Made by a program: the position numbers and the translations under genes
Notes under the pieces: generated by a model
What the model was told of the DNA's origin: nothing
The model's input: the letters and a program-made list of their open reading frames with translations, nothing else
Databases searched by the model: none
IMG/VR virus record: IMGVR_UViG_3300032335_000499
Length of the DNA stretch: 64,000 bases
Source: a virus
Lineage: Duplodnaviria > Heunggongvirae > Uroviricota > Caudoviricetes
Reading direction: 5' to 3' (one strand)
Shown: piece by piece, positions 2,338 through 36,151 of the stretch
Position numbering within the stretch: position 1 is the stretch's first letter
Layout: every line of letters starts with the position of its first letter

Positions 2338-5300
2338 ATGGCAGCTAACTTACTACCAATCACGTCGGACGGTGGATTTACATCTGGCGGAAATATCAAC
2401 TCATCCGGTGATCCAAGTTCGGCACCAAGTCTAAATGATTTCTTCAGTATAACTTCTGCGGCTAACTTTGCTATTGTAACTGACAATGCTAACACTGACC
2501 AAACTTGGACATTTGATGATACTGGTAACTTGACCTTGCCATTAGGCAGTATTGTTCATGAAACCAACATTCCAGACCAATCACTTAGTGGTAGTGCTAT
2601 TGCTTTAAAACCAATAGGTGGAACTACTGCCAATCAACAGTTATTAATATATCCAACAGCGGCTGATGGTGATCACATTCACTTGACAAGTGGCAACTTG
2701 TACGCAACCGAGTTGTTCTTAGGTAGTGATAACTTATATGTTAAGTTAGCAAACACAGGTAATGTTGTTATCAACAGTAATGATGGTAATAGTAGTAATG
2801 CTATGTGGACATTTGACACAGATGGTAACCTAACACTACCAGGTAATACTTTTGCAGTTAACTACGCTAACGGTACTCAAGTATCAATTGGTGGCGGTGG
2901 TGCTAATACAGGTAATGTGACATTTAGCGACCAAATTGTAATAGGCACTGGCAGCAATGATGGCAGTGGCGGATTGTATTTGGCTCCTGGAAATAATAGT
3001 ATTGCTAATAGTGCATTACAATACCTGAGAGTGCGCGGTGGTGATGTTGTCACACACATTCACCTTGACACAGGCAACAACGCCTTTTATGACCAATACT
3101 TTGGTGATGATGCCAAATATGTAAAACTTGAATTGGGTGATACAGGCAATGTCGTAATCGGTACTGATGATGCTAATGGTAATCAGTACAGTTGGTCATT
3201 TACTAGTGACGGTAATTTAATCCTAGCTGATGGCAACAGTATAATTACGAGCGTTGCTAATAGTTCTTTGGATCCAAATAATGCAAATGTCAGCACAATG
3301 GTCTTTACACCGGATCAAAATTATACCTCACAATCATTAGTTATTGACCCAACTGGTCCAAGTCATATTCACTTACGAGCACCAGGTGCAAATATTGACG
3401 AACCAGATGCTAATATATTCTTAGGTGGTGAAGATTCAAGTTTTGAAGTAGGTTACTATAACGGTGCCGCTCCTAACTTATACATTCACAGTAATAACAA
3501 CACTTGGACATTTGGAACTGATGGTAACTTAACTACACCAAGTAACTTAGTGATTGGCCCAGGTACCGGTAGTGGTTCAAGGATATTTCAATATGACGAG
3601 GGTCTAGAAATTGTAGGAGAAGGTGCTAACTCCGTTGTACTAATGGGTTGGACAGCAAATACAAGCGCACCCGATAGTGTTGCAACAATAGCAATGAATT
3701 ACCCAAGTGGTGGCGAAGGTAATATATTGATTGCTGTAGGTAATAACGCAACTACAGTAAACTACTGGCTCTTCGACAATACCGGTAATACAACATTCCC
3801 GCGTGATACTGGTCCTAATACGACTGATCCTATCTTAACTATTACAGGTGGTGCAAATCCAAAAATCTTGTCAGAAGATGCTAGTTTAGCAGGTCCTGCT
3901 AATCTTGAGATTACTGCTCTTAATACTATATTCACCGGCTCTAGTGGTAGCGCAATCAAGATTTATCCTGATGATGGTGAAGTTGCGTCTGATGGTAATC
4001 TTCAGATTTGGGCTAACTCGGGCGGCAATACTGAATACAGTTGGACATTTGACACAACTGGTATATTAACATTGCCTCAAGGTAGTCAAATAACTGAAAC
4101 TGCTAATACTAGTGTTAATATCACAGCCAATGCTAATACATGGGCCTTTGGTGTAGATGGTAACTTAACAGTCCCGGGTAGTTTGATTAATGATACTTCA
4201 ATAGTTCTATCAGCGCCCGCTGTTTTTAACATCTGCACTATTGCTACTGCCGGCAGTGGATATAATACTGGCAGCAGTTTGAAAGCAACTACTGGAGGTT
4301 CAGGCACAGGAATGACTGTAGGTATAGGCTACGGACTGAGTAATCAATTAACAAGTGTAAGTGTAGTAAATCCAGGTACAGGATATGTTAATGGTGATGT
4401 GATTACTGTATCTGAAGGCACCGGCGGAACATTTGTAATAACCAAATATAATGTATTAGCCAATCAAACCAATAATAACACTGTTCAAACTAATCTTACA
4501 TTTGCTAATAATACATTAACACTACCAATATACGGTGAAATAGCATCCAATGCTAATATGACATTGACTACTAATTATAGTAACGCAGGTAATACAAGTA
4601 GTTGGATACTTGACACAACTGGTAACTTAACTCTACCAGACACCACAAGCGTTCTTGCTAATGTAGGCATAACACTTGAAGCAAACGACACTGGAAATAT
4701 CACGGGATTAAGTGTAATCGGCGATTCCCACGCAAATCTATATGCTCATGGTAATATAACATTATATGCGAATACCGGTGGCGCGGGAAGTAGTTGGACA
4801 TTTGACAATACAGGTAACTTAGTATTGCCAGGCAATACTTTTGCAGTTAACTACGCTAATGGTACTCAAGTGTCCTTAGGTGGTGGCAACGTTACTTGGT
4901 CACAGATAGAAGATAAAGATGGTAACAGTGGACCTACTATAATAACCCTAGGTCAAAATGCAGGATTTGACGGTCAAGGCAATGCCGCAATAGCAATTGG
5001 TAAAAATGCTGGTCAAGGTGGTCAAGGTGATTCATCAATAACAATCGGAGAAGATGCTGGTGGTAACACTACTCAAGGCGCTAATGCAGTAGCAATTGGT
5101 AGATCGGCTGGTTTTGATGCACAGGGTGAGTATGCTGTGGCCATTGGTCAAAATGCTGGTTACGCCTTTCAAGGCCTCCAAACAGTGGCTGTTGGCCTAA
5201 ATGCTGGTTCAAACACACAAAGTAATTTGGCAGTGGCCATTGGTGTTAGTGCTGGTTCAAACACACAAGGTGATGCCGCAGTGGCCATTGGTGCGACGGC

Positions 5301-6327
5301 TGGTTTTGATGCACAAGGCAATCAGGCAGTGGCCATTGGGACCGGTGCTGGCGAAACCTCACAAGGTACTTACGCAGTGGCCATTGGTAGTGGCGCAGGC
5401 GCAAATGCTCAAGGTAACAACTCAATCATATTGAATGCTACTGGCGCAAACTTAAATCAAACTACAGCAAATACATTCACTGTATCACCAGTACGCAATG
5501 ATACTTCAAATATTGCTGAAGTTATGTTCTACAATGCTACTAGTAAAGAAGTTACATATGGTAACACAATAAGTATTGCTGGTAATGCTAACGTTGGTAA
5601 CTTGAGTACAACAACTGCAATCATTACAACCGGTAACATCACTACTATCAATAGCGGTCTATTACAGAATGGTAACTCAAACATCACTCTTACCGCTAAT
5701 GGTAATGTTTCAATTCAAGCAGCCGGTAGCAACGTTGAATTAGTAGTTACAAGTACTGGTGCTAACGTCACTGGTACATTTAATGCCACTGGCAATATCA
5801 CAGGATCATATCTAATATCAGCCCAGGCTTCAGGTGATGAAGGCGGTGAGATTTCGTTGGCACAACCACCAAATGGTAATCTATCAGGTGGTATTACTAT
5901 TGATGCATATCAAAATACATTGCGAATGTTTGAGCAAGGTGGAACTGCAAGAGGCTTATCAGTAGATATTGCTAATAGCCCGGCTGGTGGTGGCACTGCA
6001 ATAGGTTACAGAGATATTCCTCAAGTGGCTGCCGGTAACGTTACATTGGCTGCAACCGATGCAGGTAAACATTACTACTCAACTACTGCTGGTAACTTAA
6101 CGTTGACTATTCCATTGAACTCATCAGTTCCATTCACTACAGGTACAGCAATCAGTATCGTTGTTCAGGCGGCGGGCAATGTCTTAGTCAATGCAGCAAG
6201 CGGTGTTACATTGTATATGGCAGGTAACAGTACAGCGGCTAATCGTGTAGTTGGTGGTTATGGTATGGCAACACTACTGAAAGTAGCAAGTGATACTTGG
6301 TTCATTAACGGTGCAGGAGTAGCATAA
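2338..6327 (+). CDS. large tail fibre protein (1329 aa) with internal duplications and 13-aa tandem repeats
   Basis: Long ORF immediately downstream of previous fibre gene; about 10 copies of WTFD.(D/T)GNLTLP motif; duplicated segment PGNTFAVNYANGTQVS at aa ~165 and ~835; AVAIG.NAG..QG tandem repeats. Confidence 0.6.
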   Translation: MAANLLPITSDGGFTSGGNINSSGDPSSAPSLNDFFSITSAANFAIVTDNANTDQTWTFDDTGNLTLPLGSIVHETNIPDQSLSGSAIALKPIGGTTANQQLLIYPTAADGDHIHLTSGNLYATELFLGSDNLYVKLANTGNVVINSNDGNSSNAMWTFDTDGNLTLPGNTFAVNYANGTQVSIGGGGANTGNVTFSDQIVIGTGSNDGSGGLYLAPGNNSIANSALQYLRVRGGDVVTHIHLDTGNNAFYDQYFGDDAKYVKLELGDTGNVVIGTDDANGNQYSWSFTSDGNLILADGNSIITSVANSSLDPNNANVSTMVFTPDQNYTSQSLVIDPTGPSHIHLRAPGANIDEPDANIFLGGEDSSFEVGYYNGAAPNLYIHSNNNTWTFGTDGNLTTPSNLVIGPGTGSGSRIFQYDEGLEIVGEGANSVVLMGWTANTSAPDSVATIAMNYPSGGEGNILIAVGNNATTVNYWLFDNTGNTTFPRDTGPNTTDPILTITGGANPKILSEDASLAGPANLEITALNTIFTGSSGSAIKIYPDDGEVASDGNLQIWANSGGNTEYSWTFDTTGILTLPQGSQITETANTSVNITANANTWAFGVDGNLTVPGSLINDTSIVLSAPAVFNICTIATAGSGYNTGSSLKATTGGSGTGMTVGIGYGLSNQLTSVSVVNPGTGYVNGDVITVSEGTGGTFVITKYNVLANQTNNNTVQTNLTFANNTLTLPIYGEIASNANMTLTTNYSNAGNTSSWILDTTGNLTLPDTTSVLANVGITLEANDTGNITGLSVIGDSHANLYAHGNITLYANTGGAGSSWTFDNTGNLVLPGNTFAVNYANGTQVSLGGGNVTWSQIEDKDGNSGPTIITLGQNAGFDGQGNAAIAIGKNAGQGGQGDSSITIGEDAGGNTTQGANAVAIGRSAGFDAQGEYAVAIGQNAGYAFQGLQTVAVGLNAGSNTQSNLAVAIGVSAGSNTQGDAAVAIGATAGFDAQGNQAVAIGTGAGETSQGTYAVAIGSGAGANAQGNNSIILNATGANLNQTTANTFTVSPVRNDTSNIAEVMFYNATSKEVTYGNTISIAGNANVGNLSTTTAIITTGNITTINSGLLQNGNSNITLTANGNVSIQAAGSNVELVVTSTGANVTGTFNATGNITGSYLISAQASGDEGGEISLAQPPNGNLSGGITIDAYQNTLRMFEQGGTARGLSVDIANSPAGGGTAIGYRDIPQVAAGNVTLAATDAGKHYYSTTAGNLTLTIPLNSSVPFTTGTAISIVVQAAGNVLVNAASGVTLYMAGNSTAANRVVGGYGMATLLKVASDTWFINGAGVA
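4945..5415 (+). repeat. about 12 tandem copies of a 39-nt (13-codon) repeat inside the tail-fibre gene (..gcagtggccattggt..aatgctggt..caagg..)
   Basis: Nucleotide-level periodicity visible: gcagtggccattgg recurs at ~5088, 5136, 5231, 5280, 5328, 5382; encodes AVAIG.NAG..AQG units; creates spurious alternate-frame ORF 5201..5434. Confidence 0.6.
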
Positions 6328-12264: not shown

Positions 12265-12293
12265 ATTATACTAAACTTGACATCAAATGTCAA
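12265..12293 (-). promoter_or_regulatory. sigma70-like promoter TTGACA-N17-TATAAT
   Basis: plus strand attata(12265-70)...17 nt...tgtcaa(12288-93); small basic 50-aa ORF (~12103..12255) lies downstream. Confidence 0.45.
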
Positions 12294-18752: not shown

Positions 18753-18828
18753 TGGTTGCGCAGAGGAGAGTCGAACTCCTAGCGATAGGTTATGAGCCTA
18801 TCATGTTACCGTTACACTACCGCGCGCC
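18753..18828 (-). tRNA. tRNA with CAT anticodon (Met / fMet / Ile-lysidine), copy 1
   Basis: anticodon stem ATAGG/CCTAT loop CTCATAA; T-loop TTCGACT; acceptor pairing imperfect in my reading. Confidence 0.55.
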
Positions 18829-19298
18829 ATTTTTCTTTAAAACTATTTTGAAGAACACACTATAAACTCTACTGCGTAATATGCCGAAACGCCCATAGAG
18901 TCAGTCTTTCGGTCCACACTGTAGTGTATTCATCAAAATAGTCTAATATTATTTAGTCTATTTATAACCCACCCTGAGATTACGGGCTTGTAGCGAGAGT
19001 CTTTGGTCATTACCGAATCCCTTGCGAGGACCGTTCTACCGTTATCCACTAGGGCTTTTTACAGTCACCTAGTAACTCTCAATGCTGCCTTTTTTAGAGT
19101 CTGGCGTTTGACTCGTCGCATATGTCTACTCGACCATCTATCTTTCGCTAGCCTTGCGGGCTATTCAAGGTCGCTAAACCCTTACGCTTTCTTTCCGATC
19201 AATCAGTTCAGCCTTGCGAGCCTTCCTGAACCACATTCCCTTGCGAGTGAGGTATTAAGCATCTTTAAACATATACCGGAGCAGACTTTCGCTTTTGT

Positions 19299-19369
19299 AG
19301 TGCAATACAGGAGTTGAACCTATATCGATTCCTTATTATGGAATTGACTTACCATTAGTCAAATTGCGA
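19299..19369 (-). tRNA. degenerate tRNA-like element (intact D, anticodon and T arms; loop ATAATAA, acceptor with 2 mismatches) - possible pseudo-tRNA
   Basis: GACT/AGTC D-stem, ATTCC/GGAAT anticodon stem, ATAGG-TTCAACT-CCTGT T-arm; no CCA. Confidence 0.25.
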
Positions 19370-20194
19370 ACCTACCAAGATGTGCTGCTCCAGTTGCTCC
19401 ATATCTTGTTAGATACAGAATACAACACACCTTATGTCTTTTGCCTTGCGGGCTACTCAACCATACTTCACGAATCCAGCACAGCACCCTCAGGTCTATA
19501 CTTTCTTCGCTTGTATTGCTATCTTGCCTTTCCTTGCGAGGTCAGACTCAATAACTACCTGTTAACTTTCAATATTCATCAGTTTAGCTGTACTTCGTGA
19601 GGGCGCTAACCCTCTTAACTCCTCAGCGTTGCCCTGGAGCCTATCCCTTTCGGGACGTTCGTACCTGACTTACTACCTACCGCCTTTCTACGGACGGGCC
19701 TTTCGGCTAGTTCAGGCTTGCATAGATGGACCATTGCTGGCGCAAGTTTATAGGAAACCTTGCTTTGACAGAGATTACTCCCTGCTACCCTAGTGAGGCT
19801 ATGCCCCCAATTTCTATTCAATTTTCAAAGAACAAAGACAATCTCTTGTCTTGATTTACTCATTATATCAAAGTTCGTAACGTTTGTCAAGAACTATTTC
19901 GCCTATTTGCAAAAAAAGTTTGGAAGAGAAAAAGTAAGTGATAGACAATGCAATACACAGCGACCCGACCGTACGGTCAAAGTCTACGGACACTAAACAC
20001 TACACAATCTGCAAAAATAACGTATCTCTAAGCGGCAACTCACAAATCTGAATAAAGCTTAGTTCATGCTATTATGGAGCGTTTCAAGCGCCTGATCGGT
20101 ACAGTATCTCCGATACCAGGGTGTCTACTCTCGTCTCTCTTTCTCTTCCTGGTAGCGTCCTCAAGATGGAGTCAGAAGGAACGCTACCAAACTC

Positions 20195-20757
20195 TTAGAT
20201 GATGTCCTCAGACTTGAGAACTTCAACTGTGCTTGTAGCAAGTTCAATTGTAGTGCGAACATTGGCTTCAAGCAACGCATCCTGGACAGCTTGCTTCTTC
20301 TTCTTAGCAAGTGAAACATTGTTTCGGAAGCTTTCCAAATCAGTTTCAGTAAAGATAGAAGTGCTTACTTCGCTTGAATGGAAGCTGTAGCTTTCACCCT
20401 CACGATTAGCAATCTTGTCAAGCTTACCGCTGATGACCTTAAGGTCAGTCTGAACATTTGCCTTAGCAAACGGTGCAAAGAACACGAGGTCCTTTTCAAT
20501 GCGGGCAAGATCGGCAAGAAGGTTGTCGATGTTGTTCTCTGCATTAGCAGTAGCAACCTTAGTGCGAATGTCATAGAGCGCGGAAATTAGATTCCAACGG
20601 CGCTGAACATTGCGGTCAAACTTCTGCTTAGTAAGTTCAATTTCCTGAGCAGGAGTCTGGAACTCGTTGATGCTAACATCAGCCTTAAATTCCAAACCCT
20701 TGAGGGCTTCGTTGATTAAAACTTGAAGTGCATTGGCTTTGCGTAGTGAAACTTGCA
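20195..20757 (-). CDS. hypothetical protein (start moved to MQVSLRKANAL; track N-terminus overlaps tRNA-Asp)
   Basis: AGAGGAAAGAA SD upstream of ATG ~20757. Confidence 0.45.
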
Positions 20758-20777
20758 TTTTTCTTTCCTCTATAAAA

Positions 20778-20854
20778 TGGCGACTCGTACGGGACTTGAA
20801 CCCGTGGCCTCTAGCGTGACAGGCTAGCGATCTAACCAACTGATCTAACGAGCC
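20778..20854 (-). tRNA. tRNA-Asp(GTC)
   Basis: anticodon stem CTAGC/GCTAG loop CTGTCAC; T-arm GGGTTCAAGTCCC. Confidence 0.7.
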
Positions 20855-20920
20855 ATTAAACTCTTTATATACTTCTTATAATGTATTCTAAAACGATAGT
20901 CAATCGTTTTGGGTAAACTT

Positions 20921-20995
20921 TGGTGACGCGGGGTAGAATTGAACTACCGACATGGAGCTTATGAGACTCCTGTTCTACCACTGAACTACCGCGCC
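20921..20995 (-). tRNA. tRNA with CAT anticodon, copy 2
   Basis: anticodon loop CTCATAA; T-arm GGTAGTTCAATTCTACC. Confidence 0.65.
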
Positions 20996-21020
20996 ATTAA
21001 TAAAGGGTGTGTCAAGGATT

Positions 21021-22238
21021 TTACCCCTTGACACAAACTACCTGCTTCAACGTATGAACGATTTCTACAAGGTCAGACTGTGCAGCCATAACTGCATCAA
21101 TGTCCTTGTACGCATTTGGCGTTTCGTCAATAACGTCTGCGTCCTTGCGGCACTCAACCCCTGCCGTAGCAGCGATATGGTCCTCAATAGTGAAACGCTT
21201 CTTCGCTTCGGTACGGCTCATAGAGCGTCCAGCACCGTGTGAACACGAACTGAACGATTCACGATTACCCTTGCCGCGAACGATGAATGACTTTGCACCC
21301 ATTGAACCAGGGATGATTCCCAGTTCGTCCTTCTTAGCTGACACTGCACCCTTACGAGTAAGCAGAATGTCTTCACCGAAGTGACGCTCATGCGATACAT
21401 AGTTGTGGTGACAGTTAACTGCCATCATTTCACTATAGAACGGCTTCGTAATTACTGACTTGATAGCAGCAATAGTTGCTTCCATCATCACTTCACGATT
21501 GCTACGAGCAAAACGCTGTGCCCAAGACACTGCTTGCATGTAGTCGTTGAAGTGGTCAGTACCTTCTGCTAGATAGGACAAGTCCATGTCTGGCAGATTG
21601 ATGAACCACTTACGCATATCCTGCTTAGCAAGTTCAATGAAGTAGGAACCGATACGATTACCTACACCACGAGAACCTGAGTGCAACATGATCCAAACAT
21701 AATCATCTTCATCAAGACAAATCTCTACGAAGTGATTGCCGGAACCAAGCGTACCTAAGTGATACGGAGCCCGTTCAGCAGCCTGACTAATCTTAGGATG
21801 CTTTGCTACAATTTCTGAAAGCACAGGTAAATGTGCAACAAACTTAAGTGCAACTGCATTAGAATAATCACTGAATGCACCACGGTCATTCTTGCCACCG
21901 TTATCAGTACGACCATGTGGGACTCGTGCTTCAATCGCAGAGCGAATGCCGAACAGGTTGTCGGGCAAATCTTCTGCACGAAGGTTAGTACGATGAGCCA
22001 TCATGCCGCAACCGATATCAACACCGACTGCTGCTGGAATAATTGCGCCCTTAGTCGGAATAACCGAACCAACAGTCGCACCCATTCCCCAATGAACGTC
22101 AGGCATAATTGCTACGTGCTTGTGAATGAAGGGCATAGCAGCAATATTGTCAAGCTGGGCGCGGGCTTGATCCTCAACGGACACGCCGTCAATCCATGCC
22201 TTAATAAGACCGCCCTTGTTTCCTTGAATTACTTGCAT
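21021..22238 (-). CDS. rtcB: RtcB-family RNA 3'-phosphate/2',3'-cyclic-phosphate ligase
   Basis: 405 aa; conserved RtcB blocks MPDVHWGMGATVGS, GCGMMA, HNYV, CSHGAGRSMSR; AGGAAG RBS. Confidence 0.8.
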   Translation of the reverse strand: MQVIQGNKGGLIKAWIDGVSVEDQARAQLDNIAAMPFIHKHVAIMPDVHWGMGATVGSVIPTKGAIIPAAVGVDIGCGMMAHRTNLRAEDLPDNLFGIRSAIEARVPHGRTDNGGKNDRGAFSDYSNAVALKFVAHLPVLSEIVAKHPKISQAAERAPYHLGTLGSGNHFVEICLDEDDYVWIMLHSGSRGVGNRIGSYFIELAKQDMRKWFINLPDMDLSYLAEGTDHFNDYMQAVSWAQRFARSNREVMMEATIAAIKSVITKPFYSEMMAVNCHHNYVSHERHFGEDILLTRKGAVSAKKDELGIIPGSMGAKSFIVRGKGNRESFSSCSHGAGRSMSRTEAKKRFTIEDHIAATAGVECRKDADVIDETPNAYKDIDAVMAAQSDLVEIVHTLKQVVCVKG

Positions 22239-22302
22239 AACTACTTCCTTTAAAAAATGGATGGGCAGTTTACCGTCTTACCCAGGACCCTGTTTTTAAA
22301 AT

Positions 22303-22396
22303 AGGGGGAAAGTAGGGACTTGAACCCTAATAACACCGCTGTCACGGCTGCTCTATGATGACAGTCATAAAGCTGTTACGCACCGTACCCTTCCCC
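22303..22396 (-). tRNA. type-II (long variable arm) tRNA-like gene with non-canonical anticodon arm; identity unresolved
   Basis: 8-bp-capable acceptor GGGGAAGG/CTTTCCCC, T-arm TAGGGTTCAAGTCCCTA, long extra arm; anticodon region TTTATGACTGTCATCATAG folds with 6- or 8-nt loop, not 7. Confidence 0.4.
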
Positions 22397-22402
22397 GTTA
22401 AC

Positions 22403-22478
22403 TGGTAGACGATGTAGGATTCGAACCTACGACCTAGGGATTAAGAGTCCCGCGCTCTACCGACTGAGCTAATCGTCC
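22403..22478 (-). tRNA. tRNA-Lys(CTT)
   Basis: anticodon loop CTCTTAA; T-arm GGTTCGAATCC. Confidence 0.65.
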
Positions 22479-22517
22479 ATATAACAACTTAGAAGAACAC
22501 TGTAGAACCGTCGTTCT

Positions 22518-22588
22518 ATAATACTACTGGATTCGAACCAGTTACTCGTCCTTTCGAGGCAGGAAGTCTCCAATGCTTCTCAGTATTC
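22518..22588 (-). tRNA. tRNA-like remnant (good acceptor/D/T arms, no foldable anticodon stem), 7-nt tandem duplication agtattc at 5' end
   Basis: GAAG/CTTC D-stem, ACTGG-TTCGAAT-CCAGT T-arm, but anticodon region TGCCTCGAAAGGACG does not pair. Confidence 0.25.
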
Positions 22589-22748
22589 AGTATTCATCTA
22601 AACTGTTACAAGCAACAAGAAGCCGGTGCACTTAGCAATTCAGCAATTTACGAAACACCATTCGGGGCTTCTCGTCACTTGATATATTCACTATAACGTA
22701 CTTCTTGTTGATTGTCAACCAAAAAATGACCTTTTTCAAAGATAATTG

Positions 22749-24251
22749 TTACCAGCCCTTAAACCAGTAACTAAGCACTGCCTCAGCAGGCTTGTTTCGG
22801 ATACTAGCTGAAAAATCGTAACAAGTATCATTAAGTGTGTCTTTTTTTCTAGGGTTATCCAAATAGTGATATCCCCAGCTAAATATTCCTTTTATGATCC
22901 CTGAACCATCCGACCTTTGCTCATTGACAATTTCAGCAGCAGATTGATAAATGTCAGCTTGCACCTGATAGTCTCTTGTCTTATTGTTAAATTCAGAGCA
23001 ACGTAACCCAGACTCTATATAATCACTTGAAACCAATCCAGTATGAACTGAAGGCGTTCCGATCATAAGAAGAATAGGAACCTTTGCAGAAGAAATCGAT
23101 GCAATATGTTTCTTAATGTCTTTAGTGAGTTTAGTGCGTGATTGGGCAGCATGTAGTGTTTCGTTATTATCAGGAATGATTGGATTATAGAGACTCAACC
23201 CAATCTCATCAAAAAGATCAATAAAAGCGGTTCGCTTATTAACATCAGAAATCCCAAGCAAGCCATTATATGAACCGTTGGTCATAGAAAAATAAGATAT
23301 TTTTCCAGTAAACCCAGCCTCCCTGATAGCTTTGATAAGTTCAATCCATCTAGAATTTCCCTTATTTACCATGTAGTCCATATTAAAACCAATTACAAGT
23401 CTTGTTGCACCAGCTTGTTGTGCTAAAGCTGCTCTATCAACTAGTATCCTCTTATATTCACTAAACCACCTATCCCAGAAGGGGTCATTATCAGAAAGTT
23501 GACTGATGGCAGAATAGAACTTTGGAACGTCCCATGGATCATTTCCGAGAGTATCTCCGGGATAGATTCCCATCATAACTGTAAAATCCATACCCCGTGA
23601 TCTGGCTAAGTTACCCATATCCAAAATCACTTGATTAGCTGGAAAATATTTACCGTACAACTCAACTGACCGAGAATTAACATTCATTGATTTAATGAAT
23701 GCAGAATCAGCATAAACAACATTATTTCCACCAATGCTCTTTATTCTGTCAAAGGTAGTGGGGAAATATCCTCCATTGTAATAATCCATCAGCCAACCGC
23801 CAGCATCGTGCGGAACAATTGCTTTTGTAAAGTTTGGCTGTCTATTAATCGTATTGGCTTTGTACAAGCCGAGTTGTATCGGCGTGCTATCGTGTGATGT
23901 GTATGGGTACCAAGTTGGTTGATACCCTAATTTGTTCACGGAAAGCTGAGAGTATTCGCCGGTAGACTTCGGCGTTTCAACATTGACTGTTTCTTGAGTT
24001 AGACTTGCAATAGCTGACGTAACCGATGCTGGATGAGAGACTGTTGACAATCTTTCATATGTCTGTATATCTACAGGTGTTGTCTGAGGAACAGCAGGAG
24101 CTGGAGTAGGCAGCGCAACTGATGTCGTTGTTGGTATTTGTACAAAATTTGAACTAGTAGAAGACGTATCGCCGCCGCAACCACTGAGTGCTAATACTCC
24201 AGCAGCCGCCGCCATCATCAAAGTTGTTTTGTTCATACACGCTACTTTCAT
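22749..24251 (-). CDS. large secreted lipoprotein (start moved; lipobox LALSGC), possible polysaccharide-active enzyme
   Basis: Signal peptide plus lipobox; Thr/Pro-rich linker then ~420-aa globular domain; track N-terminus LVTHFAIVKYKL is translation of promoter cassette. Confidence 0.45.
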   Translation of the reverse strand: MKVACMNKTTLMMAAAAGVLALSGCGGDTSSTSSNFVQIPTTTSVALPTPAPAVPQTTPVDIQTYERLSTVSHPASVTSAIASLTQETVNVETPKSTGEYSQLSVNKLGYQPTWYPYTSHDSTPIQLGLYKANTINRQPNFTKAIVPHDAGGWLMDYYNGGYFPTTFDRIKSIGGNNVVYADSAFIKSMNVNSRSVELYGKYFPANQVILDMGNLARSRGMDFTVMMGIYPGDTLGNDPWDVPKFYSAISQLSDNDPFWDRWFSEYKRILVDRAALAQQAGATRLVIGFNMDYMVNKGNSRWIELIKAIREAGFTGKISYFSMTNGSYNGLLGISDVNKRTAFIDLFDEIGLSLYNPIIPDNNETLHAAQSRTKLTKDIKKHIASISSAKVPILLMIGTPSVHTGLVSSDYIESGLRCSEFNNKTRDYQVQADIYQSAAEIVNEQRSDGSGIIKGIFSWGYHYLDNPRKKDTLNDTCYDFSASIRNKPAEAVLSYWFKGW

Positions 24252-24267
24252 TTTTAGCTTATATTTT

Positions 24268-24296
24268 ACTATAGCAAAATGGGTAACCAATGTCAA
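24268..24296 (-). promoter_or_regulatory. sigma70-like promoter TTGACA-N17-TATAGT (gcaaaatgggta subfamily)
   Basis: revcomp of actatagcaaaatgggtaaccaatgtcaa. Confidence 0.5.
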
Positions 24297-24311
24297 CCGG
24301 TTTTATAGATT

Positions 24312-24387
24312 TGGTGGACACTCCGGGGCTCGAACCCGGGACCAACAGGTTAAAAGCCCGTTGCTCTACCTACTGAGCTAAGTGTCC
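24312..24387 (-). tRNA. tRNA-Lys(TTT)
   Basis: acceptor GGACACT/AGTGTCC, anticodon loop CTTTTAA. Confidence 0.7.
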
Positions 24388-24393
24388 GTTGTA

Positions 24394-24468
24394 TGGTGTG
24401 CATGGCAGGATTTGAACCTGCGACCTACGCCTTATCAGGGCGGTGCTCTACCGCTGAGCTACACGCAC
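24394..24468 (-). tRNA. tRNA-Ile(GAT)
   Basis: anticodon loop CTGATAA; T-arm GGTTCAAATCC. Confidence 0.7.
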
Positions 24469-24474
24469 GTAAAC

Positions 24475-24556
24475 TGGAGCACCGAGTAGGAATCGAACCT
24501 ACTTCACTTGCGTAGCGGATTTGCAGTCCACCGCATTCCCAATCTGCCATCGGTGC
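24475..24556 (-). tRNA. tRNA-Cys(GCA), unusually long (12-nt) variable loop
   Basis: anticodon stem GTGGA/TCCGC loop CTGCAAA; T-arm GTAGGTTCGATTCCTAC. Confidence 0.6.
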
Positions 24557-24626
24557 ATTAAACTTTATATATTAGTTATATCAACATTCAGGACGAATGT
24601 CAACCGTTTTTATGTTATTAGCGAAA

Positions 24627-25775
24627 TTAAATTACACGAATTAATGATGCTGCCTCGCGGGCGCTTTCAAGTGTATCACCTAGTACAACACCCATGCGAC
24701 GATATTTACGCACAAATGGTTTACCAAAAATTCTAACATCAATTCCTTCAATGTTCATAGCATCTTCGATGCCTTCATATTTTGGTGCATGATCGCTATT
24801 ATCTTGATACAGTACTACAGCACTTGCGCCACCGTTGCAATTCAAATCTGTGGCGTTAATCGGCAATCCTAATACTGCACGAGCATGAAGGTCAAACTCG
24901 GAATACCGTTGACTACGCAATGTAACCATGCCAGTATCATGTGGGCGAGGGCTAAGTTCGCTAAAGATAACTTCGTCATCCCTGATGAAGAACTCAACTC
25001 CAAACAGTCCAGCACCACCAAGATCATCAGTGATAATCTCAGCCATAGCTTGCGCCTGGGCAATTATTGAATTAGTATACTCTACGTTGTTAGGGATAAA
25101 CGGTTGCCAGCTATACTGGTAATCGCCGCGTTCCTGAACATGACCTATTGGTTCACAAAAAAGTGTAGGACCCGTATGTTGCTTAATAGTCAGCAATGTG
25201 ATTTCAGCATCAAACTTAATGAACTCCTCAACGATAACCTTCTTACGATCACCGCGCATATTGTTCACAGCATAATCCCATGCAACTTGCGCTTCCTCTG
25301 AATTGTGAACTACACTCTGTCCCTTGCCAGAACTTGACATTACTGGCTTAACTACGCAGGGAAAACCGATATTTAATACTGCCTGAGTAAACTCATCTAC
25401 ATTCTCTGCATAACCAAACTTTGCAGTACGCAGACCTAATTCATCGGCGCGGTCACGAATCTTATCGCGGTTCATAGTAAGATTGACTGCACGAGCAGAA
25501 GGAACTACTTGAATTCCGTTTGCTTCATAGTCATAAAGAACTTCCGTTGCTATTGCTTCAATCTCAGGAACAATAATATCTGGCATCCAAGCGTCTATAA
25601 TTGTATCCAATTGGTTTGAGTCAAGCATATTAATAACAACATTACGGTCAGCAACCTGCATTGCAGGAGCATCGGTGTAGCTGTCAACTGCGATAACAAA
25701 ATGTCCAAGACGTTTAGCAGAAATAACAAATTCCTTACCAAGTTCACCTGAACCCAATAGCATAATAGTTTTCAT
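24627..25775 (-). CDS. purT: formate-dependent phosphoribosylglycinamide formyltransferase (PurT)
   Basis: Strong block matches to E. coli PurT: LLGSGELGKE, IVPEIEAIAT, VVKPVMSSSGKGQ, LFGVEFF, IFSELSPRPHDTGM; start moved to MKTIML (track extension is tRNA-Ser read-through). Confidence 0.75.
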   Translation of the reverse strand: MKTIMLLGSGELGKEFVISAKRLGHFVIAVDSYTDAPAMQVADRNVVINMLDSNQLDTIIDAWMPDIIVPEIEAIATEVLYDYEANGIQVVPSARAVNLTMNRDKIRDRADELGLRTAKFGYAENVDEFTQAVLNIGFPCVVKPVMSSSGKGQSVVHNSEEAQVAWDYAVNNMRGDRKKVIVEEFIKFDAEITLLTIKQHTGPTLFCEPIGHVQERGDYQYSWQPFIPNNVEYTNSIIAQAQAMAEIITDDLGGAGLFGVEFFIRDDEVIFSELSPRPHDTGMVTLRSQRYSEFDLHARAVLGLPINATDLNCNGGASAVVLYQDNSDHAPKYEGIEDAMNIEGIDVRIFGKPFVRKYRRMGVVLGDTLESAREAASLIRVI

Positions 25776-25793
25776 ATTTTCTCCAGAAGTGTT

Positions 25794-25885
25794 TGGCGGA
25801 GAGTGAGGGATTCGAACCCTCGGTACCAATTTCTCAGTACGCCTTCTTAGCAGGAAGATGGTTTCAGCCACTCACCCAACTCTCC
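25794..25885 (-). tRNA. tRNA-Ser(GCT)
   Basis: acceptor GGAGAGT/ACTCTCC, anticodon loop CTGCTAA, long variable arm. Confidence 0.7.
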
Positions 25886-36099: not shown

Positions 36100-36151
36100 A
36101 CATCAAAGCAAGTGTTATTATATATGTTTTGTCAAACATTGTCAAATATTT

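What the first reader, a model, noticed from the sequence alone, without database searches (positions are those of the whole stretch)
18840..20190. 1.35-kb ORF-poor region inside the tRNA island with six copies of CCTTGCGRG, GNRA-tetraloop hairpins and a degenerate tRNA - candidate structured ncRNA(s)
No convincing ORF is present: the two track ORFs overlap a tRNA-like element and have no RBS. The motif CCTTGCG(A/G)G recurs at ~19020, 19156, 19216, 19243, 19444 and 19526 with irregular spacing. Read on the - strand (the strand of all tRNAs), the 19600-19800 segment forms several short GC stems capped by GAAA loops (CCC-GAAA-GGG, GCC-GAAA-GGC, plus GAGGG..CCCTC). An 11-bp imperfect hairpin lies at 20148-20190. 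The T4 tRNA cluster encodes two stable small RNAs of unknown function (species 1 and 2); this region could hold analogous or novel phage ncRNAs, or a protein-binding repeat array.
Basis: partly seen in the sequence, partly recalled or inferred. Interest (0 to 1): 0.6.

Follow-up and report, generated by a model that had tools for sequence, protein, structure and literature searches.

The report
GOLLD RNA plus a second phage RNA
The ORF-poor stretch holds a gene for GOLLD, a known giant phage RNA that builds hollow RNA cages, and next to it a second, apparently undescribed, conserved structured RNA that always travels with one small helical protein gene.

Summary
All six CCTTGCGRG copies exist (0.41 expected by chance), and so do the GAAA hairpins, the degenerate tRNA and the hairpin at about 20150-20190. 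All functional features lie on the minus strand.

(1) Window 18971-19433 matches Rfam GOLLD (RF02032) over its full length: 203 bits, E=6e-57. The 380 nt upstream (19434-19812) form its variable 5' domain. That domain is conserved in 22 other phage contigs, and 59 of 80 predicted pairs show compensatory changes. A perfect TG-extended sigma-70 promoter (19890-19862) and a leader hairpin precede it. The six motif copies are C-GCAA-G tetraloop hairpins of this RNA. The degenerate tRNA sits in the GOLLD linker, a known feature of the family. This part is a new member of a known family.

(2) Window ~20191-19911 is a separate structured RNA of about 280 nt with no Rfam match. It occurs in 78 of 80 IMG/VR loci that carry the adjacent 187-aa all-helical gene, directly after or directly before that gene. 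60 of 64 pairs covary. It carries repeated UGNNNNUUG motifs. Its function is unknown; a complex with the protein is my inference.

The comparison with T4 species 1 and 2 RNAs and the idea of a protein-binding repeat array are not.

The parts
18971..19433 (-). GOLLD RNA, conserved 3' domain. It runs from the first hairpin of the Rfam model, through the variable linker, to the last hairpin.
   Evidence: Rfam RF02032 matches over model positions 1-416 of 416: 203.2 bits against a gathering score of 150, E=6e-57. The same family is found at the homologous place in 11 related loci.
19434..19812 (-). GOLLD RNA, variable 5' domain. It starts at UUGGGGGCAUAGCCUCA. It contains the GAAA-capped hairpins at 19707-19698 and 19654-19645 and two of the six GCAA hairpins.
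   Evidence: blastn identity to IMG/VR relatives is 79-87%. On a structure-blind MAFFT alignment of 23 sequences, RNAalifold predicts 80 pairs and 59 show compensatory changes. 93.8% of cells are paired against 34-41% in slid controls, and 0 of 500 shuffles reach the observed values. There is no sequence similarity to the 5' domain of env-38 GOLLD.
19299..19369 (-). tRNA-like element embedded in the GOLLD linker. It has anticodon AAU, only 5 acceptor pairs and no encoded CCA.
   Evidence: ARAGORN. Rfam tRNA gives 41.2 bits over model positions 3-68 only. Relatives carry Lys-CUU, Ile-GAU or Arg-UCU versions at the same place, or none. tRNAs in the GOLLD linker are documented (PMC12286853, PMC6582537, PMC12990946).
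19020..19540 (-). The six CCTTGCGRG copies, which read CYCGCAAGG on the RNA strand. They are short stems capped by GCAA (GNRA) tetraloops, at 19020-28, 19152-60, 19212-20, 19239-47, 19444-52 and 19532-40.
   Evidence: Motif count against chance. Two copies (19212-20 and 19152-60) align to hairpin loops that the Rfam consensus itself writes CGCAA or GgaA. The copy at 19239-47 caps another model hairpin, and 19020-28 lies in an insertion within a model hairpin loop. The two copies in the 5' domain cap covarying stems, at A4 columns 557-567 and 462-473.
19862..19890 (-). Promoter of GOLLD: TTGACA, 17 nt, TATAAT, with a TG extension at 19870-19869. The predicted start of transcription is about 19857-19855.
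   Evidence: It matches 12 of 12 consensus positions. The window holds only 3 such sites against 0.05 expected, all on the minus strand. The promoter is conserved in L016, L022, L011, L005, L009 and L019. Transcription itself has not been shown.
19835..19852 (-). 5' leader hairpin: AAGACAA-GAGA-UUGUCUU.
   Evidence: Read directly from the sequence. The stem covaries in relatives, for example ACGAG/ATCGT and ACAGT/ACTGT. A stabilising role is my inference.
19911..20191 (-). Second structured RNA ('element 2'), about 280 nt. Hairpin H1 is 20188-20151. A 13-bp closing helix pairs 20149-20137 with 19934-19922 around a multibranch core. UGNNNNUUG motifs lie at 20044-20036, 20013-20005 and 19959-19951, and heptad repeats at 20014-19990. 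It ends with AAAC-U7 at 19917-19911.
   Evidence: Minimum free energy -95.7 kcal/mol, z = -4.5. It is more conserved than the neighbouring ORF. On 9 sequences aligned with MAFFT, 28 of 64 pairs show compensatory changes. Covariance model R1 finds full-length copies in 78 of 80 loci; on those, 60 of 64 pairs covary and 90% of cells are paired against 38-45% in slid controls. Rfam gives no match even at E<=10.
20195..20758 (-). 187-aa ORF that always accompanies element 2.
   Evidence: It is a conserved coding family with 247 database relatives, none with a consistent functional name. It has no Pfam, PHROG, NCBIfam or PDB sequence hit. The AlphaFold2 model has pLDDT 92, is all-helical, and has no informative fold match.
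18827..18970 (-). Spacer between the 3' end of GOLLD and tRNA-Met. It has no intrinsic terminator and only a weak promoter-like site at 18887-18859.
   Evidence: Promoter and terminator scan. It is partly conserved in relatives from 18922 onward. I did not characterise it further.

Best explanation
The region holds two RNA genes on the minus strand, the strand of all 37 tRNAs.

Gene 1, from about 19855 to 18971 (roughly 885 nt), is a GOLLD RNA. A consensus sigma-70 promoter is predicted to drive it, and it begins with a short leader hairpin. A 5' domain of about 380 nt follows, then the universally conserved 3' domain. A tRNA-like insert occupies the variable linker of the 3' domain. By inference from solved GOLLD structures, the RNA should self-assemble into a closed homo-oligomeric nanocage of 10 to 14 subunits. 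In those cages the 3' domains form the ring, the 5' domains form the caps, and the linker points into the lumen. Here the linker carries a pseudo-tRNA. The recurring CYCGCAAGG motif is a set of GNRA-tetraloop hairpins, the kind of element that makes the A-minor and tetraloop-receptor contacts that hold such folds and assemblies together. No terminator follows the RNA, so it is probably cut out of a transcript that runs on into tRNA-Met, tRNA-Gly and tRNA-Gly.

Gene 2, from about 20191 to 19911, is an independent structured RNA of about 280 nt, co-transcribed with the 187-aa helical protein gene. I infer that the RNA and the protein act together as a ribonucleoprotein, or that the protein binds the repeated UGNNNNUUG and heptad motifs.

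Shown: family membership, conservation, covariation, promoter consensus and gene linkage. Inferred: transcription, processing, cage assembly and RNA-protein partnership.
For: GOLLD: Rfam RF02032 matches end to end, 203 bits against a gathering score of 150, E=6e-57. The same hit occurs in 11 related phage loci, including Caulobacter phiCbK and Roseobacter DSS3P8. The 5' domain is 79-87% conserved and 59 of 80 pairs covary. The promoter matches 12 of 12 positions and is one of 3 such sites in 64 kb against 0.05 expected. The tRNA insert lies inside the model's linker. The cage architecture, the split into 5' and 3' domains, the linker facing the lumen and tRNAs in the linker come from PMC12286853 and PMC12990946. 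GOLLD inside a 32-tRNA cluster with a pseudo-tRNA is reported in PMC6582537.

Element 2: z = -4.5. It is more conserved than the flanking ORF, with 78% nucleotide identity against about 55% amino-acid identity to L011. 28 of 64 pairs covary on MAFFT alignment A5 and 60 of 64 on 56 distinct sequences. Full-length copies are found in 78 of 80 gene-bearing loci, either abutting the stop codon or ending just before the start codon. In some loci it follows a tRNA 3' end or its own TATAAT box. The same architecture appears in the 287-nt gap after the homologous gene of Brevundimonas phage Kikimora.
Against: There are no expression data, so the transcript ends are only predicted. The 5' domain shows no sequence similarity to the 5' domain of env-38 GOLLD, so its equivalence to helices P1-P13 and the stoichiometry of any cage are unknown. 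The biological function of GOLLD is unknown for the whole family.

For element 2, the large alignment was fitted to the model's structure and therefore leans towards it. Helices 6 and 7 are weaker, at 75-84% paired. Model R1 did not score the Kikimora gap, so homology there rests on fold resemblance. Strict co-transcription with the gene is equally compatible with a cis-acting UTR element. Nothing shows that the protein binds RNA.
Confidence: 0.9

Rival explanations
1. Element 2 is not a trans-acting RNA. It is instead a cis-acting untranslated region of the 187-aa gene: a stabilising 3' UTR or terminator where it follows the gene, and an autoregulatory leader where it precedes it.
For: It is always on the gene's strand and directly abuts it. 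In the window the closing helix is followed by AAAC-U7, which resembles a terminator. No separate promoter was found for it in the window.
Against: The same 280-nt fold lies downstream of the gene in some phages and upstream in others, which is unusual for a bacterial cis-regulator. In several loci it starts right after a tRNA 3' end or 7 nt after its own -10 box. It is more conserved than the protein. The U-run is absent in L017 and L019.
Confidence: 0.3
2. The CCTTGCGRG copies are DNA-level binding sites, such as operators or iterons, for a phage or host protein.
For: The motif is enriched 15-fold over chance, is confined to 520 bp, and all copies lie on one strand.
Against: Every copy sits at the tip of an RNA hairpin. 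Two copies (19212-20 and 19152-60) align to loops that the Rfam GOLLD consensus writes CGCAA or GgaA, and the other two copies in the 3' domain lie in model hairpin loops. The two in the 5' domain cap stems with compensatory changes while the GCAA loop stays fixed. The spacing is irregular.
Confidence: 0.03
3. The region is decaying spacer or pseudogenised coding sequence between tRNA genes.
For: It lacks long ORFs and contains a degenerate tRNA.
Against: The whole stretch 18922-20250 is 79-92% identical in contigs whose neighbouring protein is only about 55% identical. Covariation is pervasive. Indels are not multiples of three. The Rfam hit has E=6e-57.
Confidence: 0.01
4. The embedded tRNA-like element is a working tRNA-Ile(AAU) that is released from GOLLD and used in translation.
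For: ARAGORN and Rfam both detect a cloverleaf with good D, anticodon and T arms. The version in L005 and L009 ends in ACCA and looks more canonical.
Against: In the window the two terminal acceptor pairs are mismatched, which fits the Rfam alignment covering only positions 3-68. No CCA is encoded. An unmodified A34 anticodon is unusual (my own knowledge). The anticodon differs among close relatives (Lys, Ile, Arg) and the insert is absent in L011. The window already has Ile-GAU and Ile-UAU tRNAs. No expression of the pseudo-tRNA inside GOLLD was detected in Mycobacterium (PMC6582537).
Confidence: 0.07

Closest known systems
GOLLD RNA (Rfam RF02032): env-38, Lactobacillus brevis prophage, Streptococcus agalactiae, Mycobacterium tRNA-array GOLLDs, Caulobacter phiCbK phages
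   Same: The conserved 3' domain matches the covariance model over its full length. The total size is about 850-890 nt with a separate 5' domain. The variable linker carries a tRNA-like insert. It lies in a phage, inside a large tRNA array and on the tRNA strand.
   Different: The 5' domain is not sequence-similar to that of env-38, the structurally solved reference. The family is known to vary there. The host phage is an uncultured large phage absent from GenBank phage records: the best nucleotide hits cover only about 100 nt. Here the RNA has its own perfect sigma-70 promoter.
ROOL RNA (rumen-originating, ornate, large)
   Same: It is another large phage or prophage RNA found near tRNA islands that forms RNA-only nanocages with an internal disordered linker (PMC12286853). 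It is therefore a functional analogue of gene 1.
   Different: ROOL has an unrelated sequence and fold. No ROOL hit occurs in the window.
   Same: They are small stable RNAs of unknown function encoded at the end of a phage tRNA cluster on the tRNA strand.
   Different: They are 139 and 119 nt long. Model R1 of element 2 gives at most 3.3 bits over them. GOLLD is far larger. The resemblance is positional only.
Repeat-bearing protein-binding RNAs (CsrB/RsmZ-type sponges, toxI antitoxin RNAs of type III toxin-antitoxin systems). This is an analogy for element 2, from my own knowledge.
   Same: Element 2 is a structured RNA with several copies of a short conserved single-stranded motif, encoded next to and co-oriented with one small protein gene.
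   Different: Its motif is UGNNNNUUG with heptads, not GGA. It has no tandem 34-36-nt repeats. The partner protein is a long helical bundle, not a CsrA or ToxN fold. No family membership is claimed.

Membership tests
GOLLD RNA (RF02032) | Sequence and structure match to the curated covariance model of the conserved 3' domain, at or above the gathering score | tested here: met
   203.2 bits against a gathering score of 150, model positions 1-416 of 416, E=6e-57.
GOLLD RNA (RF02032) | A large structured 5' domain directly upstream of the 3' domain, giving a total length of about 700-850 nt or more | tested here: met
   379 nt (19434-19812) are conserved in 22 other contigs. 59 of 80 pairs covary, and 93.8% of cells are paired against 34-41% in controls.
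GOLLD RNA (RF02032) | 5' domain homologous to helices P1-P13 of the reference structure (env-38) | tested here: inconclusive
   An nhmmer profile of the 5' domain finds nothing in env-38 (E=0.31, wrong strand). The env-38 sequence came from a machine-read PDF and is 815 nt rather than 833. The literature describes the 5' domain as variable. No structure-aware comparison was possible.
GOLLD RNA (RF02032) | Variable linker after the first 3'-domain hairpin, sometimes holding a tRNA or pseudo-tRNA | tested here: met
   The tRNA-like element at 19299-19369 falls in the unstructured linker of the model. The insert is interchangeable or absent in relatives.
GOLLD RNA (RF02032) | Phage or prophage context next to tRNA genes | tested here: met
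   The window holds 37 tRNAs on the same strand, together with RtcB, ribonucleotide reductase and other genes typical of large phages.
GOLLD RNA (RF02032) | Self-assembly into a closed homo-oligomeric nanocage | not testable with these tools
   This requires in-vitro transcription followed by cryo-EM or mass photometry.
Canonical tRNA (for the embedded element) | Cloverleaf with a 7-bp acceptor stem and a usable anticodon conserved among orthologues | tested here: not met
   A cloverleaf is detected, but Rfam aligns only positions 3-68 at 41.2 bits. The two terminal acceptor pairs are mismatched (read). The anticodon is AAU here and CUU, GAU or UCU in relatives.
T4 rnaC / rnaD stable RNAs | Detectable sequence or structure homology to T4 species 1 or 2 RNA | tested here: not met
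   Model R1 searched with filters off against T4 69000-75000 gives at most 3.3 bits over rnaC and rnaD.
Any Rfam 15 family (for element 2) | A covariance-model match, even a weak one | tested here: not met
   Nothing reached E<=1 in a 6-kb scan. In a 306-nt scan at E<=10, the only hits were chance matches to eukaryotic families, SNORD62 and bxd_7, far below their gathering scores.

The most novel reading that the evidence does not exclude
Element 2 (window ~20191-19911) is the founding example of an undescribed class of phage non-coding RNA of about 280 nt. It is resident in the tRNA islands of large, mostly uncultured phages, is obligately paired with a 187-aa all-helical protein of unknown function, and often lies within a few kb of GOLLD. 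Its conserved single-stranded UGCA/UGNNNNUUG motifs and heptad repeats serve either as multiple binding sites for that protein (a new phage ribonucleoprotein) or, because UGCA is self-complementary, as contacts for RNA self-assembly.
Probability: 0.55. Interest if true: 0.7.

Novelty: new member of a known kind. Interest (0 to 1): 0.5.

Why it matters
GOLLD is one of the largest bacterial and phage RNAs whose function is still unknown, and it was recently shown to form RNA-only nanocages. This locus adds a well-delimited member, with a predicted promoter, leader, 5' domain variant and pseudo-tRNA cargo. It also adds a clade of more than 20 relatives in which the 5' cap domain differs from the solved examples, which is useful for asking how cap variation sets cage size.

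More importantly, the same intergenic stretch reveals a second covarying RNA, not in Rfam, that is coupled to a conserved protein. Among the 80 loci examined, 78 carry the RNA and 31 also have GOLLD within 10 kb. One cultured phage, Brevundimonas phage Kikimora, appears to carry the gene and a similarly folded RNA. That gives an experimental handle on what the non-tRNA RNAs of phage tRNA islands do.

Tried and rejected
- blastn of the region against GenBank phages found only matches of about 100 nt, to phiCbK-like and Roseobacter phages. The window's phage is not a deposited genome.
- I compared the 5' domain with env-38 GOLLD using nhmmer and found no similarity. I could not obtain Weinberg 2009 or Morgado 2020.
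- I considered a bacterial Y RNA with Ro, because RtcB is nearby. No TROVE/Ro protein is present: the 515-aa ORF resembles GH113, and there is no Rfam Y RNA hit.
- I considered tmRNA, because related Roseobacter and Caulobacter phages carry a permuted tmRNA next to GOLLD. The window has none.
- I considered homology of element 2 to T4 rnaC or rnaD and rejected it.
- I considered that element 2 is obligately linked to GOLLD and rejected it. Only 31 of 80 loci have GOLLD within 10 kb, and seven GOLLD-negative loci were confirmed negative by Rfam.
- The 187-aa protein gave nothing informative in Pfam, PHROGs, NCBIfam, PDB sequence search or Foldseek against PDB.
- Model R1 did not detect the Kikimora gap. 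Only the predicted fold resembles element 2.
- The literature search found one large IMG/VR catalogue of structured RNAs (PMC10690425). Its candidates are 29-151 nt long, and I could not check them for overlap with element 2.

Full report
**Observation.** The described features are all present. CCTTGCGRG occurs six times in the 64-kb window, only between 19020 and 19540 and only on the + strand. Shuffles give 0.41 on average and none of 100 reached six. The GAAA-capped stems at 19707-19698 and 19654-19645, the GAGGG/CCCTC stem at 19613-19599, the hairpin at 20188-20151 and the weak tRNA at 19299-19369 can be read directly from the minus strand. No ORF longer than 104 aa lies in the interval. 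The window carries 37 tRNA genes, all on the minus strand. It also carries RtcB, both ribonucleotide reductase subunits, SAM synthetase and other genes typical of a large phage.

**What most of it is.** An Rfam scan identifies window 18971-19433 (minus strand) as GOLLD RNA, RF02032. The match is end to end: 203.2 bits against a gathering score of 150, E=6e-57. RF02032 models only the conserved 3' half of GOLLD. [quoted passage not shown] In env-38 these are residues 421-833 and 1-420, with a disordered linker at 497-538 that faces the cage interior and sometimes contains tRNAs (PMC12286853; PMC12990946). GOLLD inside a 32-tRNA cluster with an internal pseudo-tRNA has been reported in Mycobacterium (PMC6582537).

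The window matches this description point by point. The tRNA-like element falls in the model's unstructured linker. Four of the six motif copies lie in hairpin loops of the 3' domain. Two of them (19212-20 and 19152-60) align to loops that the consensus itself writes CGCAA or GgaA, and the one at 19020-28 is an insertion in a model loop. On the RNA strand the motif reads CYCGCAAGG, a short stem closed by a GCAA (GNRA) tetraloop.

**The 5' half and the promoter.** GenBank phages gave only matches of about 100 nt, to phiCbK-like Caulobacter phages and to Roseobacter, Ruegeria and Phaeobacter phages. Rfam confirms GOLLD in three of these loci, and Kretsch et al. already list phiCbK phages in their GOLLD alignment. 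A pattern scan of IMG/VR with the junction sequence returned 22 contigs. blastn shows window 18922-19899 conserved at 79-87% in the closest of them.

I made a structure-blind MAFFT alignment of 23 sequences upstream of the Rfam start. It shows a conserved domain beginning at UUGGGGGCAUAGCCUCA (window 19812). RNAalifold predicts 80 pairs, and 59 have compensatory changes. 93.8% of cells are paired against 34-41% when partners are slid, and 0 of 500 shuffles reach the observed scores.

An nhmmer profile of the domain finds nothing in env-38, which is consistent with the known variability of the 5' domain. I therefore score homology to helices P1-P13 as inconclusive.

Directly upstream lies TTGACA-17-TATAAT with a TG extension (19890-19862, matching 12 of 12 positions). 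It is one of only three such sites in the window, against 0.05 expected, and all three are on the minus strand. The promoter is conserved in six relatives. It is followed by a covarying GAGA-capped leader hairpin at 19852-19835. No terminator follows GOLLD, so I infer read-through into tRNA-Met, tRNA-Gly and tRNA-Gly, followed by processing.

**The embedded tRNA.** Rfam aligns only model positions 3-68, at 41.2 bits, the lowest tRNA score in the window. The two terminal acceptor pairs are mismatched and no CCA is encoded. Relatives carry Lys-CUU, Ile-GAU or Arg-UCU versions at the same site, and L011 carries none. The insert behaves as an exchangeable pseudo-tRNA module, as the literature describes.

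**The remaining 300 nt.** Window 19885-20250 is about 90% identical in L004, L009 and L016, which is more conserved than GOLLD itself. It remains 78% identical in L011, whose neighbouring protein is only 55% identical. The minus strand folds at -95.7 kcal/mol, z = -4.5.

The anatomy is as follows:
- Hairpin H1 (20188-20151) lies a few bases after the TAA stop codon of a 187-aa ORF.
- It is followed at once by GGAAGAGAAAGAG (20149-20137), which pairs with CUUUUUCUCUUCC (19934-19922) to close a multibranch core.
- AAAC-U7 follows at 19917-19911.

On nine MAFFT-aligned sequences, 28 of 64 pairs show compensatory changes. 96% of cells are paired against 38-49% in slid controls. Rfam has no match, even at E<=10 on the isolated 306 nt.

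In L009, L004 and L011 a 78-aa ORF with its own promoter is inserted between this element and the GOLLD promoter. The element therefore belongs with the 187-aa gene and not with GOLLD.

**Distribution of element 2.** A profile of the 187-aa protein retrieved 219 IMG/VR relatives, of which the best 80 were fetched. A covariance model built from the nine sequences finds a full-length copy in 78 of those 80 loci, always on the gene's strand. The copy either starts at the stop codon or ends a few bases before the start codon. In some loci the RNA begins right after a tRNA 3' end, and in others 7 nt after its own TATAAT box.

On 56 distinct sequences, 60 of 64 pairs show changes on both sides. 90.4% of cells are paired against 38-45% in slid controls. 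This alignment is fitted to the model and so leans towards the structure.

The most conserved bases are single-stranded: UUUGG at the 5' end, three UGNNNNUUG motifs, and heptad repeats.

GOLLD lies within 10 kb, on the same strand, in 31 of the 80 loci. Seven loci without it were confirmed GOLLD-free by Rfam, although five of them hold large tRNA islands.

The protein has no Pfam, PHROG, NCBIfam or PDB sequence match. Its 247 database relatives carry no consistent functional name: nearly all are unnamed or 'hypothetical protein'. The AlphaFold2 model is confident (pLDDT 92) and consists of long helices, with no informative Foldseek match.

The only cultured phage with a detectable homologue is Brevundimonas phage Kikimora, at 28% identity. 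There the gene is followed by a 287-nt unannotated gap. That gap folds with z = -5.7 into the same layout: a 5' hairpin, a 15-bp purine/pyrimidine closing helix, a UUGAAAC loop, and five NNCUGUG heptads. Model R1 itself does not score the gap.

**Mechanism and status.**
- *GOLLD.* Membership is secure. I infer the mechanism from the family: self-assembly into a nanocage with the pseudo-tRNA-bearing linker inside. The biological role is unknown for the whole family.
- *Element 2.* The best-supported reading is an independent structured RNA that works with its neighbouring protein. The main rival is a cis-acting UTR.
- *T4 analogy.* Element 2 shows no homology to T4 rnaC or rnaD.

**Verdict.** The bulk of the region is a new member of a known family. 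The last 280 nt appear to be a previously uncatalogued RNA and deserve follow-up.

Noticed in passing
window 12265-12293 (-) and 36117-36145 (-): Two further perfect TTGACA-N17-TATAAT promoters lie on the tRNA strand (3 in the window against 0.05 expected). The second sits between the two tRNA-Gln genes. This suggests the tRNA island is split into several units driven by host sigma-70.
   Followed up: partly
window 22304-22395 (-): ARAGORN reports a 92-nt 'tRNA-???' with a two-base anticodon (gt), just upstream of tRNA-Lys and next to the RtcB gene (21021-22238). Rfam tRNA does not call it at the gathering score. It could be an intron-bearing or otherwise aberrant tRNA.
   Followed up: no
L001 1566-1952, L002 1465-1880, L003 3078-3396; also L139 16522-16922 and L153 18947-19300: Roseobacter, Phaeobacter and Caulobacter phages and two IMG/VR contigs encode a permuted (two-piece type) tmRNA. 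In L001, L002 and L003 it lies close to GOLLD; the other two are GOLLD-free loci with large tRNA islands. The window has no tmRNA.
   Followed up: partly
L004 ~5985-6080, L013 ~4075-4215, also L017 and L010: In these relatives a conserved block of about 95-140 nt (...ACCTAGTGTGAGAACTAGGGGAGTGCGACTCTCACCCGTGCA...) lies immediately upstream of the first GOLLD helix. In L004 and L013 it separates the promoter/leader from that helix. It has no Rfam hit and its nature is unknown.
   Followed up: no
L009 3946-4182 (+), with homologous inserts in L004 and L011: A 78-aa ORF with its own TTGACA-N17-TATAAG promoter is inserted between element 2 and a duplicated copy of the region upstream of the GOLLD promoter. 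The insertion resembles a moron and is absent from the window.
   Followed up: partly
L192 6577-6862 (Brevundimonas phage Kikimora, ON529857 ~79456-79741): An unannotated 287-nt gap follows the distant homologue of the 187-aa gene. It folds (z = -5.7) into an architecture like element 2, with five tandem NNCUGUG heptads. This phage is a culturable system for testing the RNA.
   Followed up: partly
L185 11435-11507 (+): Rfam freshwater-2 RNA (RF02980, 55.6 bits against a gathering score of 49.9) lies about 900 nt downstream of the 187-aa gene homologue in a 330-kb IMG/VR contig.
   Followed up: no
window 20778-25885 (-): Protein genes are interleaved with tRNAs in the island: RtcB RNA ligase (21021-22238), a 515-aa ORF with a GH113-like domain (22749-24296), and a PurT-like ATP-grasp enzyme (24627-25871). 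The list includes one RNA-repair enzyme alongside metabolic ones.
   Followed up: partly
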